The notes under the pieces were generated by a model. It saw only the letters and a list, made by a program, of their open reading frames with translations, was not told the DNA's origin and did no database searches. 64,000 nt of DNA from a bacterium (GTDB taxonomy: Bacteria; UBA8248), in the NCBI GenBank assembly GCA_965202625.1, contig CBDBBI010000010.1, positions 2,176,001 through 2,240,000 on the forward strand, written 5' to 3'. Below are positions 11,084 to 34,120 of this stretch, piece after piece. Position 1 is the first letter of the stretch. Every line of letters begins with the position of its first letter. The translations under genes were made by a program, and so were the position numbers.

Positions 11084-11160
11084 GGGCCTATAGCTCAGTT
11101 GGTCAGAGCGCGCGCCTGATAAGCGCGAGGTCCCTGGTTCAAATCCAGGTAGGCCCACCA
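11084..11160 (+). tRNA. tRNA-Ile(GAT)
   Basis: GGGCCTATAGCTCAG...cgcgc-ctGATaa-gcgcg...GGTTCAAATCC...CCA in the ITS. Confidence 0.97.
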
Positions 11161-11274
11161 TCTTGCGGGCGTGAAACGCATCGCAAGGGGAAATGGCGGA
11201 GGGACGGATGGACCGTTAAACCGAACCGAGAAAGGCTTGCCTTGGGGGCCGCTCCCTGAACTTAGTTTTACTAT

Positions 11275-11350
11275 GGGGATGTAGCTCAGTTGGGAGAGCA
11301 CCTGGTTTGCAACCAGGAGGTCGGCGGTTCGATTCCGCTCATCTCCACCA
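11275..11350 (+). tRNA. tRNA-Ala(TGC)
   Basis: GGGGATGTAGCTCAG...cctgg-ttTGCaa-ccagg...GGTTCGATTCC...CCA. Confidence 0.97.
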
Positions 11351-27422: not shown

Positions 27423-27788
27423 TCATTGCTTGTCCCTTAAATAACCATCGCTTCCATCAAGCCAGTCTTTCCGAATGGGGCTGAATATATCGTAATCTAT
27501 CACCGTTTCATCACCCACGACTTCTGCGGAGTGTGGAACGTTTGGGGGGATCAAAAGCGTTTCTCCAGGCCCAATCTCCACAGGTTCGTCGTCAATGACG
27601 AATCTAAGTTTTCCCTTGATGACGTGAGATATCTGCTCGTTCTCGTGGCTGTGCGTAGGAACCCGGCATCCCGGTTTTAGCTTGATCCAACAGAGCATCT
27701 CTTTTTCACCCACCACCATTTTTCTCGAAAAAGAAGTGGTCACGGTTTCTTCTACTATCTCATTCCAATGATATTTTTTGGCGCGCAT
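27423..27788 (-). CDS. Cupin domain protein
   Basis: PTHSHENEQ...IPPNVPHS; AGGAGA RBS. Confidence 0.88.
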   Translation of the reverse strand: MRAKKYHWNEIVEETVTTSFSRKMVVGEKEMLCWIKLKPGCRVPTHSHENEQISHVIKGKLRFVIDDEPVEIGPGETLLIPPNVPHSAEVVGDETVIDYDIFSPIRKDWLDGSDGYLRDKQ

Positions 27789-27993
27789 GGCGTATCTCCT
27801 CAGATTCGGTCGCTTCAATTGCGAATGCAAGAAGCCCTTTTTTCACTTAAGCGCGGTCTTTGTGATGAGAACGTGCTCAGGAAATCTTGCTCTATGAACT
27901 TATGCAGTCCATATGACATTCATGCTTTTCACTGGAAAACGTCCCATTGTGCGTTGTTTCACTTTTGGGTGGCGGGGAAACGCGCCGACGTAG

Positions 27994-28386: not shown

Positions 28387-28415
28387 TTGAAATATCTCCG
28401 TCCCCCAAGTATAAT
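28387..28415 (+). promoter_or_regulatory. Sigma70-type promoter of the peroxiredoxin-like selenoprotein gene
   Basis: TTGAAA (28387-28392), 17 nt, TATAAT (28410-28415). Confidence 0.7.
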
Positions 28416-28481
28416 TGATTGGGCTTTTTCCTCATTATTTTGGATTTGTTTGCACTTCACTCATTTTCGGAGGTTACACAG

Positions 28482-28982
28482 ATGCCACGCATGGCGGAAA
28501 AGATAATTGATTCGGGCAATCCCTTCCCCAGCATTGAAGTAGATCGAGTGGGGGGAGGTAAAATCTCTCTTCCCGGCGATCTGTCGGGTGCATGGGGAGT
28601 AGTTCTTTTATACCGGGGGCACTGGTGACCGTATTGCAAGCAGCAACTTACTGCCTTCGAACGAGCTGTGAAGCTCCAGGAAGAGGGCGTCAAGGTTGTT
28701 GCCGCCTCCGTGGACACGGAGGAGCAAGCCCAGGGGACGATAGATGAATGTGGACTCCACTTTCCCGTGGGCTATGGCCTCGACAACAAACAGGTATCCG
28801 AGCTCCTTGGTTGTTTTTATGAAGAGAAACGCCAGATTCTTCACAGCACGGGCTACGTTCTAAAGCCGGATGGAACGGTTGCTGTGGGTGTTTACAGTAC
28901 CGGGCCCATCGGCCGGCTCGTGTGGCAGGATGTTCTGAATATGGTTCAGTTTCATAAGAAAATGATGGCGGCGCAAAACTAG
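28482..28982 (+). CDS. Peroxiredoxin-like (AhpC/TSA, thioredoxin fold) selenoprotein, UxxC; TGA 28626-28628 read as Sec
   Basis: GGAGGT RBS; the two ORF halves share one frame; read-through VVLLYRGHW-U-PYCKQQL matches the FYRGxWCPxC motif of AhpC/TSA-like proteins. Confidence 0.85.
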
Positions 28983-28996
28983 GAGCGGATTTTTGA

Positions 28997-29035
28997 GAGC
29001 ACCCTCTCAGCCGTTGATGCTGAGGGGGTGTTTTT
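28997..29035 (+). terminator. Intrinsic terminator-like hairpin between the two Prx-like genes
   Basis: GAGCACCCTCTCAGC-loop-GCTGAGGGGGTGTTTTT. Confidence 0.7.
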
Positions 29036-29091
29036 CTCGTGCGCAAGCTCGGTTCGCCGGCTTTCATCTTTCAATAAAAGTGGAGTTGATT

Positions 29092-29619
29092 ATGCCGAAA
29101 GTGAACGATTTGTTTCTAGATACCGGGGATGATTTCCCGAGTATGTATATCTCGAAAGTGGGTGGTGGAAAAATTACTCTGCCTGATGATTTGAGGGGTG
29201 CGTGGGGTGTTGTGTTGTTCTACCGAAGTCATTGGTGACCTTATTGACTCGCACAGATGGCGGGGTTCTCCCGGGCGGGAGAAAAGCTTGAAGCGGAAGG
29301 CATCAAAGTCGTCGCGGCGTCTACTGACCCTGAAAATGAAGCCATGCAATCCATCGAAGCGAGCAAGGTGAACTTTCCAGTCGGTCACAGCCTGAATCCC
29401 GTGCGCATCTCTGAGGTGACAGGCGCTTATTACGCGCCCGAAGCGGGCGAGAAGCCAAGACCATACCTTCATTCTACGAATTTTTTGCTCTCGCCGGACG
29501 GGAAGGTGAACGTCGCGCTATACAGCTCAGGCCCTCTCGGGCGGCTCGTCTGGCAGGACGTGATCCAGGCTGTGCAGTTTCGAAAAAGACGGATGGCTCA
29601 GGCTCGGGATAGGGATTAG
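29092..29619 (+). CDS. Peroxiredoxin-like selenoprotein with UxxU motif (TGA 29236-29238 and 29245-29247)
   Basis: tgg TGA cct tat TGA ctc gca cag atg encodes W-U-P-Y-U-L-A-Q-M; colinear over its full length with the upstream UPYC paralog; no frameshifts. Confidence 0.82.
29266..29283 (+). promoter_or_regulatory. Putative SECIS hairpin for the UxxU gene
   Basis: TTCTCCC-gggc-GGGAGAA perfect 7-bp stem; G-rich loop begins 34 nt and 25 nt after the two UGAs. Confidence 0.55.
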
Positions 29620-29620
29620 A

Positions 29621-29652
29621 AAAAGCCGGCGAGGCTGCCCTCACCGGCTTTT
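29621..29652. terminator. Bidirectional intrinsic terminator
   Basis: AAAAGCCGG...CCGGCTTTT between convergent genes. Confidence 0.75.
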
Positions 29653-29662
29653 GGAGCTGTCT

Positions 29663-30052
29663 TTACGTGTTTTTGAGACGTTCTTTTATTTCATCCGCAT
29701 CGGACGCCTTGTTGTAGTCTTGGTCCAACGTGCCGTCGCCCGCAGGACTTTTGACCGCGAAGAATTTTGCTGGTCCTTCGGTGATGTGAATGCCATGTCG
29801 CGTGTTCCGGGGGATGTGCGCCAAGTCACCAGGCCCAATTTCTCGAATCTCCTCGCCACAGATCATGTTCATCTTTCCCTCGAGCATCAAAATGTATTGC
29901 TCTTCGTTGGGATGGAAGTGCGGCGGCGGGCCATCCCCTTGTGAATAGATGACCCACCCCACCTTCATCAACTCGCCAGTCGTTGCGTGATTGATGGCTG
30001 GACCTACTTTTGACCTGCCTTTGGGGAGTTCTTCCATTCTATAAAAAGGCAT
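29663..30052 (-). CDS. Cupin domain protein
   Basis: PPHFHPNEEQ...IPRNTRHG. Confidence 0.88.
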   Translation of the reverse strand: MPFYRMEELPKGRSKVGPAINHATTGELMKVGWVIYSQGDGPPPHFHPNEEQYILMLEGKMNMICGEEIREIGPGDLAHIPRNTRHGIHITEGPAKFFAVKSPAGDGTLDQDYNKASDADEIKERLKNT

Positions 30053-30075: not shown

Positions 30076-30465
30076 TCAGATTGATTTCAGTTTTTTTCGC
30101 GCCTCCTCGACGTCTTTGTCCATGTTGTAGTCTTGGTAGAGGTCGCCGTCCCCCGCGGGGCTTTTTACGGTAAAGAACGAGAAAGGTCCCTCCATGATGA
30201 AAAGGCCATGTCGCTCACCGCGGCGAATATGGACCAAATCTCCGGGACCGACAACGCGGGTTTCCTCGCCCAGGAGCATATTCGCCTTGCCCGCCATCAC
30301 TAAAAGGAACTGCTCCTCGTTCGGATGAAAATGAGGGGGCGGACCGCCGCCTTCAGGATAGGTTATCATTCCGGCCTTCATGAGCTCCCCGCCCACGCTT
30401 TGCATACGTGCGTTCCCCATATCAACGAATTGCGTTTCCATTTCAGATATCCTGTAAAATGGCAA
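30076..30465 (-). CDS. Cupin domain protein (tandem paralog; TTG start)
   Basis: MPFYR..., PPHFHPNEEQ, VKSPAGDG shared with the neighbouring cupin. Confidence 0.88.
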   Translation of the reverse strand: MPFYRISEMETQFVDMGNARMQSVGGELMKAGMITYPEGGGPPPHFHPNEEQFLLVMAGKANMLLGEETRVVGPGDLVHIRRGERHGLFIMEGPFSFFTVKSPAGDGDLYQDYNMDKDVEEARKKLKSI

Positions 30466-30483: not shown

Positions 30484-31164
30484 TCAATTAAGCCGAGCGA
30501 CCACCCGAGTGGGCGCTCCCTCAATTTTATAGAGCTTCATGGGAAATGCGAACATTTCAAATTCGGTTTCATCAAACGTGTCCAAATTGACGATGTGTTC
30601 AATGAGTGGAATGCCTCGTCCCAATACCGCCCGGTGGCCGGGGGAATCTTCGTGGTGGACGATGGAGTCTGGTCGCAAGCCCGGGTCGATCGCATGGTCC
30701 ATGCACAGGGCCTTCATTCCGCAATCACATAAAAAATGACACGCTTCTGTGTCGAGATGAGGATTGGGGCCAAAGTAATCAGGGGTGAAGATTTTCTCTT
30801 TCGACCAACCAGTCCATGTAACGGCGATGGCGCCATCCAGTCGCTTGGGGTCGAACCCGGAGGAAGAGGCAATCATCTTTCGGTTGATGGGGCGCGCCTC
30901 TCGGGCGATTCCCCTCAAGTCGATTTTCACGGCGCGGCCACAAAATGTTTCAAGTGGCATTTCATCGATCGTTCTTCCATCTGTGTAGAAATGGTTGGGC
31001 GCATCGATATGTGTTCCTTGGTGTATCGCCATTTTTACCGCGCTGTTTTGACGGCCATGAGATGCATGTTCATGAAACTGCCAGTATTCCACCGGGGGAA
31101 ACGTCGGAACTTCACAAAGGTCCGGATGCCCCAGAGGCACAGTGAGATCAATGAGTCGGCTCAT
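30484..31164 (-). CDS. Cyclase family (kynurenine formamidase-like) metal-dependent hydrolase
   Basis: LIDLTVPL, HQGTHIDAPNHF, IEHIVNL, GAPTRVVA. Confidence 0.88.
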   Translation of the reverse strand: MSRLIDLTVPLGHPDLCEVPTFPPVEYWQFHEHASHGRQNSAVKMAIHQGTHIDAPNHFYTDGRTIDEMPLETFCGRAVKIDLRGIAREARPINRKMIASSSGFDPKRLDGAIAVTWTGWSKEKIFTPDYFGPNPHLDTEACHFLCDCGMKALCMDHAIDPGLRPDSIVHHEDSPGHRAVLGRGIPLIEHIVNLDTFDETEFEMFAFPMKLYKIEGAPTRVVARLN

Positions 31165-32035
31165 CGTCTTCCTCCGTTGAGTTGGCAACTACGAGATGAT
31201 GTTTTCTAAGGAAATCATGGATGAGGGCAAGCGTCGCCTCCGCCTTGTCCAGTTGAACGTAACGGCTCGTCCCTTCTATTAAAACAGATTCGCATCGGGA
31301 AATTTTTGTGGACAGCATTTGAATGTCCGGATGATATTCCCCATCGTGTTCACCTGTAAGCGCGAGAACCGGGCAGGAGACCTCGCCTAGGCGATCCAAT
31401 AAGTCGGGTGCCAGCAGTTCTGCGTATCCAGCCGAAGCATACCCGGACGGGTTATTTTGTAAGAAGAGGCGATGGTGCTGCGCGCGCTCTCGAGGGTTCA
31501 TGCCTCTGGGTTCTCTGTTCTCGTTTTTTCTGTTCTTGTAGGCTTCGCGCATTTCTCCTGCTTCGGCCAGATGGATTCGCTCGGCGATTCCCCTGCGCAC
31601 GCTCTTGCTGGCGGGCGCGGCGCCCGTCGCAATGAGAACGAGCGCGGCTGGGTGACGGGGCTGCTCGATCGCGAACAGGAGCGCCGCTCTTGCGCCTAAC
31701 CCGTGTCCGATGATGATGGGTTTCTCCAGGCTCAAAAGAGCGATGACATTCTGGATATCGCCCGCCATCTCATCCAGTGTATATTTTCCCCGAGGGCTTG
31801 AAGAGCGACCATGCCCTCTTGGCTCTAGGGCGATGACGCGGTGCAGGTGCATTAAAGTAGGGATGAGCTTGCGCCATACCCAGTTGGTGTCCCCAAGCCC
31901 TGGGACGCACAGAATCGGTGCGCCATCCCCAAAAGCCTCATAGCATAAAACGACAGGATCGTCTGTGCTGGAATGGCTGACGTTGACGTATTTGGCCGTT
32001 CGGGAGAATCGATTGAATTCGCGGCCCATGATCAT
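31148..32035 (-). CDS. Alpha/beta fold hydrolase-like protein (nucleophile motif GHGLG lacks Ser)
   Basis: EPRGHGRS, GHGLGA; no obvious catalytic His near the C-terminus. Confidence 0.75.
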   Translation of the reverse strand: MIMGREFNRFSRTAKYVNVSHSSTDDPVVLCYEAFGDGAPILCVPGLGDTNWVWRKLIPTLMHLHRVIALEPRGHGRSSSPRGKYTLDEMAGDIQNVIALLSLEKPIIIGHGLGARAALLFAIEQPRHPAALVLIATGAAPASKSVRRGIAERIHLAEAGEMREAYKNRKNENREPRGMNPRERAQHHRLFLQNNPSGYASAGYAELLAPDLLDRLGEVSCPVLALTGEHDGEYHPDIQMLSTKISRCESVLIEGTSRYVQLDKAEATLALIHDFLRKHHLVVANSTEEDDEPTH

Positions 32036-34028: not shown

Positions 34029-34120
34029 GGAGAGGTGGCCGAGTCCGGTTTAAGGCGGCAGACTCGAAATCTGTTGTGCAGGCGACTGTACCGGGGGTTC
34101 GAATCCCTCCCTCTCCGCCA
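34029..34120 (+). tRNA. tRNA-Ser(CGA); island integration site
   Basis: GGAGAGG/CCTCTCC acceptor stem, gcaga-ctCGAaa-tctgt anticodon arm, long variable arm, GCCA end. Confidence 0.95.
34090..34120 (+). repeat. attL-like direct repeat (31 bp, 3' end of tRNA-Ser)
   Basis: ACCGGGGGTTCGAATCCCTCCCTCTCCGCCA identical to 41830-41860. Confidence 0.92.

What the first reader, a model, noticed from the sequence alone, without database searches (positions are those of the whole stretch)
29092..29619. Peroxiredoxin-like protein with two in-frame UGAs forming a UxxU motif (double selenocysteine)
Seen in sequence: tgg TGA cct tat TGA ctc encodes W-U-P-Y-U, with both TGAs at the two Cys positions of the YRxxWCPxC motif. 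The gene is otherwise intact, has an RBS, and is colinear with its neighbour. A perfect hairpin TTCTCCC-gggc-GGGAGAA has its loop 34 and 25 nt after the two UGAs. Established: UxxU is rare and is known from the diselenide-forming SelL family. Inference: two independent nonsense mutations hitting exactly both catalytic codons are unlikely, so this is probably a diselenide oxidoreductase. A single bacterial SECIS might serve two UGAs three codons apart. Standard annotation would split or miss this gene.
Basis: partly seen in the sequence, partly recalled or inferred. Interest (0 to 1): 0.85.

Follow-up and report, generated by a model that had tools for sequence, protein, structure and literature searches.

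The report
Double-selenocysteine (UxxU) peroxiredoxin-like redox gene
This is a real, conserved gene for a small peroxiredoxin-fold redox protein whose two active-site cysteines are both replaced by selenocysteine; the family and its two-selenocysteine form are already catalogued, so it is a well-supported new example and not a new kind of thing.

Summary
Window 29092-29619 (+) encodes a 175-aa AhpC/TSA-fold protein with in-frame TGAs at 29236-29238 and 29245-29247, giving HWUPYU. A tandem paralog at 28482-28982 has HWUPYC. The genome has selA, selB, selD and tRNA-Sec.

Across 38 related genomes:
- The first site is TGA in 38 of 38.
- The second site is TGA in 20 and TGC/TGT in 18, needing at least 5-8 switches on the gene tree.
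- The frame after both TGAs is under purifying selection (dN/dS 0.11).
- All-Cys homologs in other phyla have WCPYC at the same place.

It covers the only run of five codons with no synonymous change (0 of 100,000 permutations). UxxC and UxxU forms share it, so one SECIS probably serves both UGAs. A second hairpin (29248-29264) shows compensatory changes.

Public protein sets hold only 102-122-aa C-terminal fragments of this gene.

It is not SelL (26.9 bits against a cut-off of 120). It fits the published "Prx-like thiol:disulfide oxidoreductase" selenoprotein family, which two reviews list as PF00578 with UxxC/UxxU and 1-2 Sec. It is a new member of a known kind. The diselenide chemistry is untested.

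The parts
28387..28415 (+). Promoter-like site TTGAAA-17-TATAAT upstream of the first paralog
   Evidence: 11 of 12 consensus matches. This is a consensus match only; function is not shown.
28482..28982 (+). Upstream tandem paralog, 166 aa, AhpC/TSA fold, one Sec (HWUPYC; TGA at 28626-28628)
   Evidence: Pfam PF00578 E 3.1e-19; 54% identical to the downstream gene; WUPYC in 35 of 35 paralog copies found.
28995..29038 (+). Terminator-like hairpin followed by UUUUUCU, between the two paralogs
   Evidence: -28.1 kcal/mol, z -4.96, 0 of 200 shuffles fold as well. The terminator scan did not list it. The reading as a terminator is inference.
29082..29085 (+). Shine-Dalgarno GGAG, 6 nt before the ATG
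   Evidence: Read directly.
29092..29619 (+). Prx-like thiol:disulfide oxidoreductase selenoprotein gene, 175 aa, two Sec (HWUPYU)
   Evidence: PF00578 64.2 bits against cut-off 26; orthologs in 38 genomes; dN/dS 0.11-0.14; AF2 model pLDDT 90.6; Prx/BCP/ResA folds are the best PDB matches.
29236..29238 (+). UGA 1 = Sec49, the N-terminal position of the CxxC-type motif (aligns with the conserved Thr of peroxiredoxins)
   Evidence: TGA in 38 of 38 orthologs; aligned with invariant C49 of Cys homologs; aligned with Thr of Prx 6q5v and the first Cys of ResA.
29245..29247 (+). UGA 2 = Sec52, the C-terminal position of the motif (aligns with the peroxidatic Cys of peroxiredoxins)
   Evidence: TGA in 20 and TGC/TGT in 18 of 38 orthologs; 8 state changes on the tree, at least 5 forced by well-supported branches; aligned with invariant C52.
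29248..29264 (+). Hairpin A, directly after UGA2 (stem 29248-53 / 29259-64, 5 of 6 pairs in this genome)
   Evidence: 6 pairs, 3 with compensatory double changes (CG/GC, CG/GC, CG/GC/AU/GU), 84.6% of cells paired. RNAalifold finds pairs 14-18/24-28. Its role is unknown.
29266..29283 (+). Hairpin B, the best SECIS candidate: UUCUCCC-GGGC-GGGAGAA, loop 34 nt after UGA1 and 25 nt after UGA2
   Evidence: Identical 18 nt in 33 of 38 orthologs. Codons 60-64 are the only run of single-codon columns: 5 of the 6 such columns among 142; 0 of 100,000 permutations give a run of 5. 97.3% of cells paired. Present in both UxxC and UxxU forms.
29621..29652 (+). Terminator-like hairpin after the stop codon
   Evidence: -21.1 kcal/mol, z -2.90, 3 of 200 shuffles fold as well. 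The T-run is weak (UUUUGG). Inference.

Best explanation
Window 29092-29619 is a functional gene for a cytoplasmic selenoprotein of 175 aa with a peroxiredoxin (AhpC/TSA) fold. It carries a thioredoxin-type redox motif, W-U-P-Y-U, at the N-terminus of the first helix, and both UGAs are decoded as selenocysteine. Shown here: the gene, its conservation, the Sec/Cys interchange at site 52, the Sec machinery, and an RNA-level constraint on the hairpins. Inferred: SelB bound to hairpin B (29266-29283) delivers Sec-tRNA at both UGAs, which lie 9 nt apart. Hairpin B is homologous in position to the SECIS of the single-Sec paralog and of UxxC orthologs. Also inferred: Sec49 is the exposed nucleophile and Sec52 the resolving residue, so the oxidised form holds an intramolecular diselenide, or a selenenylsulfide in UxxC orthologs. 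On this reading the protein works as a thiol/selenol-disulfide oxidoreductase, not as a canonical peroxidase. The gene belongs to the already described 'Prx-like thiol:disulfide oxidoreductase' selenoprotein family. It sits next to a UxxC paralog in a selenoprotein-rich marine lineage whose public records are titled Nitrospinota, Nitrospinaceae or Tectomicrobia.
For: Sec machinery in the same genome: selA 565.5 bits, selB 361.4 bits (adjacent to selA), selD 332.6 bits (itself with one in-frame TGA), tRNA-Sec 75.8 bits; all are above the curated cut-offs.

Orthologs: 38 genomes carry the gene. Site 49 is TGA in 38 of 38. Site 52 is TGA in 20 and TGC/TGT in 18. The ML tree needs 8 changes of state, and starred branches force at least 5 (7 and at least 5 with 30 rows).

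Selection among UxxU forms only: dN/dS is 0.139 before the TGAs and 0.113 after the hairpins.

All-Cys homologs (45-55% identical, Actinomycetota, Alphaproteobacteria and others) have invariant Y44 R45 W48 C49 P50 C52.

Hairpin B: the same 18 nt in 33 of 38 orthologs. Five consecutive codons use a single codon while only 1 of the other 137 degenerate columns does, with 0 of 100,000 permutations matching.

Two-hairpin structure: 91.4% of cells paired against 85.6% shuffled (0 of 500); covariation score 0.135 against 0.069 (0 of 500).

Fold: pLDDT 90.6, and helix 50-61 starts right after U49. Best PDB folds are BCP/Prx (5enu, 3hjp, TM 0.73-0.78) and ResA. The ResA CxxC aligns with U49/U52.

Independent sequence: a contig from another study and two RNA-library contigs carry both TGAs.

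Literature: PF00578 'Prx-like thiol:disulfide oxidoreductase' is listed with 'UxxC, UxxU' and 1~2 Sec in PMC9312934 and PMC13188914 (passages).
Against: No protein-level evidence exists here: no 75Se labelling or mass spectrometry.

Single-sequence folding of the region after the UGAs is not exceptional (z -0.7 to -1.6; z -2.41 for the 37-nt two-hairpin core).

Hairpin B is nearly invariant, so it gives almost no covariation. Its support comes from synonymous-site conservation.

In one search the control with partners slid by +3 columns gave a covariation score (0.161) above the observed one (0.135).

RNAalifold on A2 did not return hairpin B in its consensus.

No Rfam family matched, and bSECISearch was not available.

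Two UxxC orthologs look damaged: an in-frame internal deletion in L149, and a frameshift in L150 from a 79%-complete assembly. The gene is therefore dispensable or mis-assembled in some lineages.

Neighbouring genes (cupins, cyclase, hydrolase, creatininase, Band 7) give no functional clue.

Contigs from RNA libraries do not prove transcription.
Confidence: 0.8

Rival explanations
1. The protein is a peroxidase and not a disulfide oxidoreductase. Sec52, which occupies the place of the peroxiredoxin peroxidatic Cys, attacks peroxide, and Sec49 resolves the selenenic acid. Both TGAs would still be Sec.
For: U52 aligns with the peroxidatic Cys of Prx 6q5v. The best structural matches are BCP/PrxQ and 1-Cys peroxiredoxins. 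Pfam AhpC-TSA is the top family. Sec-containing Prx (TxxU) is a known selenoprotein (Table in PMC13188914).
Against: The Prx catalytic set is not kept. The Pro seven residues before the Cys is an invariant Arg45, and the Thr is Sec/Cys49. The residue aligned with the Prx Arg is not conserved among the Cys homologs. No peroxiredoxin NCBIfam model comes near its cut-off: the best is 32.7 bits against 211. The site that never varies is 49, not 52.
Confidence: 0.2
2. Two SECIS elements. Hairpin A (29248-29264, 9 nt after UGA1) serves UGA1, and hairpin B (18 nt after UGA2) serves UGA2.
For: Hairpin A has three pairs with compensatory changes. Its 9-nt distance from UGA1 is close to the roughly 11-nt spacer of E. 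coli fdhF (recalled, not from a call).
Against: Both hairpins are equally present in UxxC orthologs, which have only one UGA. The loop of hairpin A lacks G in L052, L053 and L148 (CAACU). The UxxC paralog and the class-level single-copy UxxC homologs place their predicted hairpin loop about 30-35 nt after the UGA, which is the position of hairpin B relative to UGA1.
Confidence: 0.12
3. UGA2 is mainly a stop or a leaky stop. The cell would make a 51-aa peptide, or read UGA2 through with Trp/Cys, and the gene is decaying or split.
For: Public gene calls start a 120-aa ORF at Met56. Two orthologs look damaged (L149, L150).
Against: TGA at site 52 is kept in 20 genomes spanning several genera. The downstream frame is intact there with dN/dS 0.113. 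Codon 56 is Leu, not Met, in 14 of the 20 UxxU orthologs, so the annotated C-terminal ORF has no conserved start. The state alternates only with Cys codons. Both damaged copies are UxxC forms, not UxxU.
Confidence: 0.05

Closest known systems
Prx-like thiol:disulfide oxidoreductase selenoprotein family (PF00578; motif UxxC/UxxU; 1-2 Sec), as listed in PMC9312934 and PMC13188914 and counted in PMC1976440 and PMC2398784 ('Prx-like 1', pfam00578, UxxC)
   Same: PF00578 domain. Sec sits at the first, or at both, positions of a CxxC-type motif. All-Cys homologs are abundant. A hairpin follows the UGA. The function is predicted only.
   Different: Nothing in kind. Added here: a tandem UxxC + UxxU gene pair, repeated U/C switching at the second site within one lineage, a letter-invariant SECIS candidate shared by both forms, and an extra covarying hairpin. 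I could not fetch the family's reference sequence (WP_010940744.1) to measure identity.
SelL (selenoprotein L; UxxU; diselenide shown experimentally for the animal protein, Shchedrina et al. 2007, cited in PMC2397514; the paper itself was not held)
   Same: Prx-like/thioredoxin fold, UxxU redox motif, aquatic organisms. One SECIS proposed for two Sec (recalled from the abstract, not seen here).
   Different: A different family: the NCBIfam SelL-related model NF040769 scores 26.9 bits against a cut-off of 120 and covers only residues 17-93. The GOS paper places bacterial UxxU sequences in 'Prx-like 2' (weak pfam04592 similarity), not in pfam00578.
ResA / TlpA-type thiol-disulfide oxidoreductases (for example PDB 3c71, 1st9)
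   Same: Best PDB sequence match (E 4.5e-7). Both Cys of the ResA CxxC align with U49 and U52. Thioredoxin-like fold.
   Different: ResA is an extracytoplasmic, membrane-anchored Cys protein. This protein has no hydrophobic N-terminus (read). It scores 29.4 bits against a cut-off of 170 for the ResA model. The structural match is weaker than to BCP/Prx (TMq 0.58 against 0.73-0.78).
BCP/PrxQ and 1-Cys peroxiredoxins (PDB 5enu, 3hjp, 6q5v) and the Sec-containing Prx (TxxU)
   Same: Best structural matches. U52 occupies the peroxidatic position.
   Different: The PxxxTxxC signature is replaced by RxxxUxxU/C. No Prx model reaches its cut-off.

Membership tests
Prx-like thiol:disulfide oxidoreductase selenoproteins (PF00578, UxxC/UxxU) | AhpC/TSA (PF00578) domain above the gathering score | tested here: met
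   64.2 bits against cut-off 26, residues 12-140.
Prx-like thiol:disulfide oxidoreductase selenoproteins (PF00578, UxxC/UxxU) | In-frame UGA(s) at the Cys positions of a CxxC-type motif, with Cys homologs | tested here: met
   U49 and U52 align with invariant C49 and C52 of 80 all-Cys homologs. Motif instances in L056-L139: 63 CxxC, 26 UxxC, 11 UxxU.
Prx-like thiol:disulfide oxidoreductase selenoproteins (PF00578, UxxC/UxxU) | Bacterial SECIS hairpin shortly downstream of the UGA | tested here: inconclusive
   Hairpin B has a G-rich loop 25 and 34 nt after the UGAs and is conserved at synonymous sites. bSECISearch was not available, there was no Rfam match, and binding to SelB is untested.
Prx-like thiol:disulfide oxidoreductase selenoproteins (PF00578, UxxC/UxxU) | Sec-decoding trait in the genome (selA, selB, selC, selD) | tested here: met
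   All four found above their cut-offs.
Prx-like thiol:disulfide oxidoreductase selenoproteins (PF00578, UxxC/UxxU) | Sequence similarity to the family's reference protein (WP_010940744.1) | not tested
   The reference sequence could not be fetched with these tools.
SelL | Match to the SelL-related family model | tested here: not met
   NF040769 scores 26.9 bits against a cut-off of 120.
SelL | UxxU motif forming a diselenide | not testable with these tools
   The motif is present. The bond needs biochemistry or a structure.
Canonical peroxiredoxin | PxxxTxxC active site plus conserved Arg | tested here: not met
   The corresponding residues are R45, U49 and U52. The aligned Arg is not conserved in homologs. 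The best Prx NCBIfam scores 32.7 bits against 211.
ResA/TlpA thiol-disulfide oxidoreductases | Family model and extracytoplasmic anchoring | tested here: not met
   NF002854 scores 29.4 bits against 170. No N-terminal hydrophobic segment in the sequence.

The most novel reading that the evidence does not exclude
One invariant 18-nt SECIS hairpin, helped by an adjacent covarying hairpin that starts at the base after UGA2, directs Sec insertion at two UGAs only 9 nt apart. The lineage has switched the second site between Sec and Cys at least five times without touching the RNA element. That would make this gene a natural, ready-made series for two open measurements: how far bacterial SelB/SECIS spacing can stretch, and what a diselenide offers over a selenenylsulfide in the same scaffold. 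I found no experiment on either for a bacterial UxxU protein (full-text searches).
Probability: 0.2. Interest if true: 0.6.

Novelty: new member of a known kind. Interest (0 to 1): 0.4.

Why it matters
Natural proteins with two selenocysteines in one redox motif are few. Only the animal SelL has been shown to form a diselenide (cited in PMC2397514, passages).

This locus gives a clean comparative series:
- the same protein with UxxU (20 genomes) or UxxC (18 genomes);
- CxxC relatives in other phyla;
- a UxxC paralog next door;
- one shared SECIS candidate across the Sec forms.

That makes two questions directly testable. The first is the spacing tolerance of bacterial Sec insertion, with two UGAs 18 and 27 nt from one hairpin. 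The second is the redox consequence of Se-Se against Se-S.

On the practical side, public gene calls truncate this gene to a 102-122-aa fragment. Selenoproteomes of this lineage will therefore be under-counted unless Sec-aware annotation is used. A 2026 database paper ranks organisms with such names among the most selenoprotein-rich bacteria, with 48-54 selenoprotein genes (PMC13326102, passages).

Tried and rejected
Pseudogene or double nonsense mutation: rejected because of conservation, dN/dS and the Sec/Cys interchange.

Sequencing error: rejected because the state recurs in 20 genomes and in contigs of other studies.

SelL membership: rejected.

Rfam scan of 28400-29700 at E up to 10: 5 weak matches, none relevant, all far below gathering scores.

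Single-sequence folds of 56-86-nt stretches after the UGAs were not distinctive (z -0.7 to -1.6).

The RNAalifold consensus of A2 kept hairpin A but replaced hairpin B by a weak long-range pairing. I rely instead on the explicit pair counts and the synonymous-site test.

Genomic neighbours gave no functional link.

The terminator scan found none of the hairpins that flank the genes. Those are my own reading.

- 29 had blastp E <= 1e-3 to the query.
- 10 of these are clear orthologs (64-79% identical).
- 7 are distant AhpC/TSA proteins with WUPxU, and 7 of 7 exceed the PF00578 cut-off. UxxU therefore recurs in other branches of the fold.
- 12 are short chance motif matches.

RNA-library contigs show presence only, not transcription or expression level.

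Parts of the stretch lacked cover in X5, X7 and X8. This is not evidence of anything.

I did not see supplementary files. Dataset S1 and Table S1 of PMC2398784, and the BSepDB tables, may already contain this very gene.

Shchedrina et al. 2007 (PMC1955791) was not held. What I say of it comes from citing passages in PMC2397514 and PMC2398784, or from recall, as marked.

Full report
**What is there**

Window 29092-29619 (+) is an open frame of 175 codons if TGA is read as Sec. It has GGAG six bases before the ATG, TGA at 29236-29238 and 29245-29247 (FYRSHWUPYULAQ), and a TAG stop at 29617-29619.

Pfam places residues 12-140 in AhpC/TSA (PF00578, 64.2 bits, cut-off 26). No NCBIfam model comes near its cut-off: the best Prx model scores 32.7 against 211, ResA 29.4 against 170, and the SelL-related model 26.9 against 120.

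Directly upstream on the same strand, 28482-28982 is a 54%-identical paralog of 166 aa with a single TGA, giving HWUPYC. Strong hairpins followed by U-runs lie after each gene. This suggests separate transcripts, which is my inference. The consensus scan did not list them; it found a promoter-like site at 28387-28415.

**Sec machinery**

The window's genome (3.09 Mb, 99.7% complete) has selA, an adjacent selB, a selD that itself holds one in-frame TGA, and a tRNA-Sec. All are above the curated cut-offs.

**Comparative evidence that both TGAs are sense codons**

A six-frame search with stop read-through found the gene pair in most relatives: 50 of 61 genomes at E <= 0.001 and 47 of the 51 genomes held for the phylum at E <= 1e-25. 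With this query it was not found in G024 (87% complete), G027 (88%), G032 (91%) and G038 (99%).

I examined the ortholog of the downstream gene in 38 genomes (L022, L027-L059, L147-L150):
- Codon 49 is TGA in 38 of 38.
- Codon 52 is TGA in 20 and TGC or TGT in 18.
- The upstream paralog is WUPYC in 35 of 35 copies found.

I built an ML tree of the 38 genes with codon 52 masked. On it the U/C state needs 8 changes, and well-supported branches alone force at least 5 (7 and at least 5 with the first 30 rows). The tool warned of one long branch (L147) and three rows of odd composition. The deep branches of the main clade carry U, and C states are nested among them. That fits repeated Sec-to-Cys replacement, but the direction is not proven.

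Among UxxU-bearing genes alone, dN/dS is 0.139 for codons 1-48 and 0.113 for the codons after the hairpins. The frame behind both TGAs is therefore under purifying selection.

Codon 56, where public gene calls start, is Leu in 14 of the 20 UxxU orthologs.

Two UxxC orthologs look damaged: an in-frame internal deletion in L149, and a frameshift in L150 from a 79%-complete assembly.

**Cys homologs**

Outside this lineage the family is all-Cys. In the 80 best genome loci plus four extra orthologs I counted 63 CxxC, 26 UxxC and 11 UxxU motif instances, and no motif was found in one locus, L124. UxxU occurred only in records titled Nitrospinota, Nitrospinaceae or Tectomicrobia, or untitled 'bacterium'. 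There was one UxxC in a Thermodesulfobacteriota record.

An alignment of the query, its paralog and 80 all-Cys proteins has Y44, R45, W48, C49, P50 and C52 invariant.

**RNA elements**

Two more differ only in the loop (GGGU). Three distant UxxC orthologs have other sequences there.

In the 30-ortholog codon alignment, 142 columns hold a degenerate residue shared by at least 20 sequences. Only 6 of them use a single codon, and 5 of those are the consecutive codons 60-64 (TCC CGG GCG GGA GAA) that form the hairpin. No run of 5 arose in 100,000 permutations. This is an RNA-level constraint, and it is the same in UxxC and UxxU forms.

A second hairpin starts at the base after UGA2 (29248-29264). 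Three of its six pairs show compensatory double changes. For the two helices together:
- 91.4% of cells pair, against 85.6% in shuffles (0 of 500).
- The covariation score is 0.135 against 0.069 (0 of 500).
- Slid controls pair in 52-70% of cells, but the +3 slide gave a higher covariation score (0.161).

The paralog and the class-level single-copy UxxC homologs place their predicted hairpin about 30-35 nt after the UGA, which is where hairpin B lies relative to UGA1.

My reading is that hairpin B is the ancestral SECIS of UGA1 and that UGA2 arose 9 nt closer to it. Both distances (34 and 25 nt to the loop) lie inside the 16-37-nt range of the bSECISearch model, a figure I recall and did not check in a call. 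The role of hairpin A is open.

**Fold and mechanism**

The AlphaFold model is confident (pLDDT 90.6, pTM 0.88). U49 sits just before helix 50-61 and U52 in its first turn, the classic place of a thioredoxin-type CxxC.

Foldseek's best solved folds are BCP/PrxQ and 1-Cys peroxiredoxins (TM 0.73-0.78), followed by ResA. By sequence, the ResA CxxC aligns with U49/U52. In peroxiredoxin 6q5v the Thr and the peroxidatic Cys align with U49 and U52.

The peroxiredoxin Pro-Thr-Arg set is not kept (R45, U49, no conserved Arg). I therefore favour a dithiol/diselenol oxidoreductase mechanism with an intramolecular Se-Se bond, and I give the peroxidase reading about 0.2.

**Independent sequence and annotation**

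A DNA contig from a different study (X5) and RNA-library contigs (X7, X8) cover both TGAs with no difference listed there. X2 may be the source and is not counted. RNA-library contigs do not prove transcription.

The 21 best database proteins (P0002-P0022, 65-100% identical) are 102-122 aa long and cover only 52-69% of the query. Full-length hits begin at 53-55% identity and are Cys forms named 'peroxiredoxin'. Standard annotation does truncate the gene.

**What is known**

- 'Prx-like thiol:disulfide oxidoreductase' is an established predicted selenoprotein family (Table 1 of PMC1976440).
- The GOS survey lists 'Prx-like 1, pfam00578, UxxC' with 225 sequences, and reports UxxU only in the distant 'Prx-like 2' group (PMC2398784, passages).
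- Reviews of 2022 and 2026 list the PF00578 family with 'UxxC, UxxU' and '1~2' Sec (PMC9312934, PMC13188914; passages).
- A 2026 database paper ranks organisms named Nitrospinota/Nitrospinaceae (GTDB UBA8248) among the most selenoprotein-rich bacteria, with 48-54 genes, and says its pipeline handles two or more Sec residues (PMC13326102, passages).
- My metagenome scan found seven further, distantly related AhpC/TSA genes with WUPxU. The double-Sec state therefore recurs in this fold.
- Full-text searches for UxxU, SelL/diselenide, and Nitrospina with selenoprotein or selenocysteine turned up no experimental study of a bacterial UxxU protein.

**Verdict**

The object is a new, very well supported member of a catalogued family and not a new kind of system. 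What this analysis adds is the tandem UxxC/UxxU pair, the repeated Sec/Cys switching at the resolving position, the shared invariant SECIS candidate and the extra covarying hairpin.

Noticed in passing
G000:C10:1611050-1612009 (-), locus L010: The genome's selD matches TIGR00476 at 332.6 bits with one in-frame TGA, so selenophosphate synthetase is itself probably a selenoprotein here.
   Followed up: no
G000:C10:1123110-1123358 (-), locus L025: Another weak AhpC/TSA-like match (28% identity, E 1.4e-5) with one in-frame TGA inside a 289-aa open frame. It may be a further Prx-like selenoprotein. Similar single-TGA hits appear in many relatives.
   Followed up: no
L149 (G008) and L150 (G017): In two UxxC-type orthologs the downstream gene looks damaged. 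L149 lacks about 45 residues in frame (…EAGKMNISLYSSGPL…). L150 has a frameshift after …AFYAPE, in a 79%-complete assembly.
   Followed up: partly
L238, L184, L252, L207, L174, L153, L221 (metagenome contigs): Seven distantly related AhpC/TSA genes (25-44% identical to the query over the aligned part) also carry W-U-P-x-U. Several have a hydrophobic N-terminal segment. 7 of 7 exceed the PF00578 cut-off.
   Followed up: partly
window 27423-27830 (-), 29663-30052 (-), 30076-30465 (-), 30484-31188 (-): Three small cupin-domain genes and a putative cyclase (PF04199) flank the selenoprotein pair. An alpha/beta hydrolase and a creatininase-family gene lie further on. There is no obvious redox link.
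   Followed up: no
window 11084-11350 (+) and 34029-34120 (+): tRNA-Ile(gat) and tRNA-Ala(tgc) lie side by side, the usual spacer of an rRNA operon, and there is a tRNA-Ser(cga). The tRNA-Ser is the sub-threshold 'tRNA-Sec' hit at G000:C10:2210029-2210116.
   Followed up: no
window 28448-28989 (upstream paralog): In both RNA-library runs of one study, the contig over the upstream paralog ends at 28989, just before the terminator-like hairpin at 28995-29038. Both runs are from the same study, so this is a weak hint at most.
   Followed up: no
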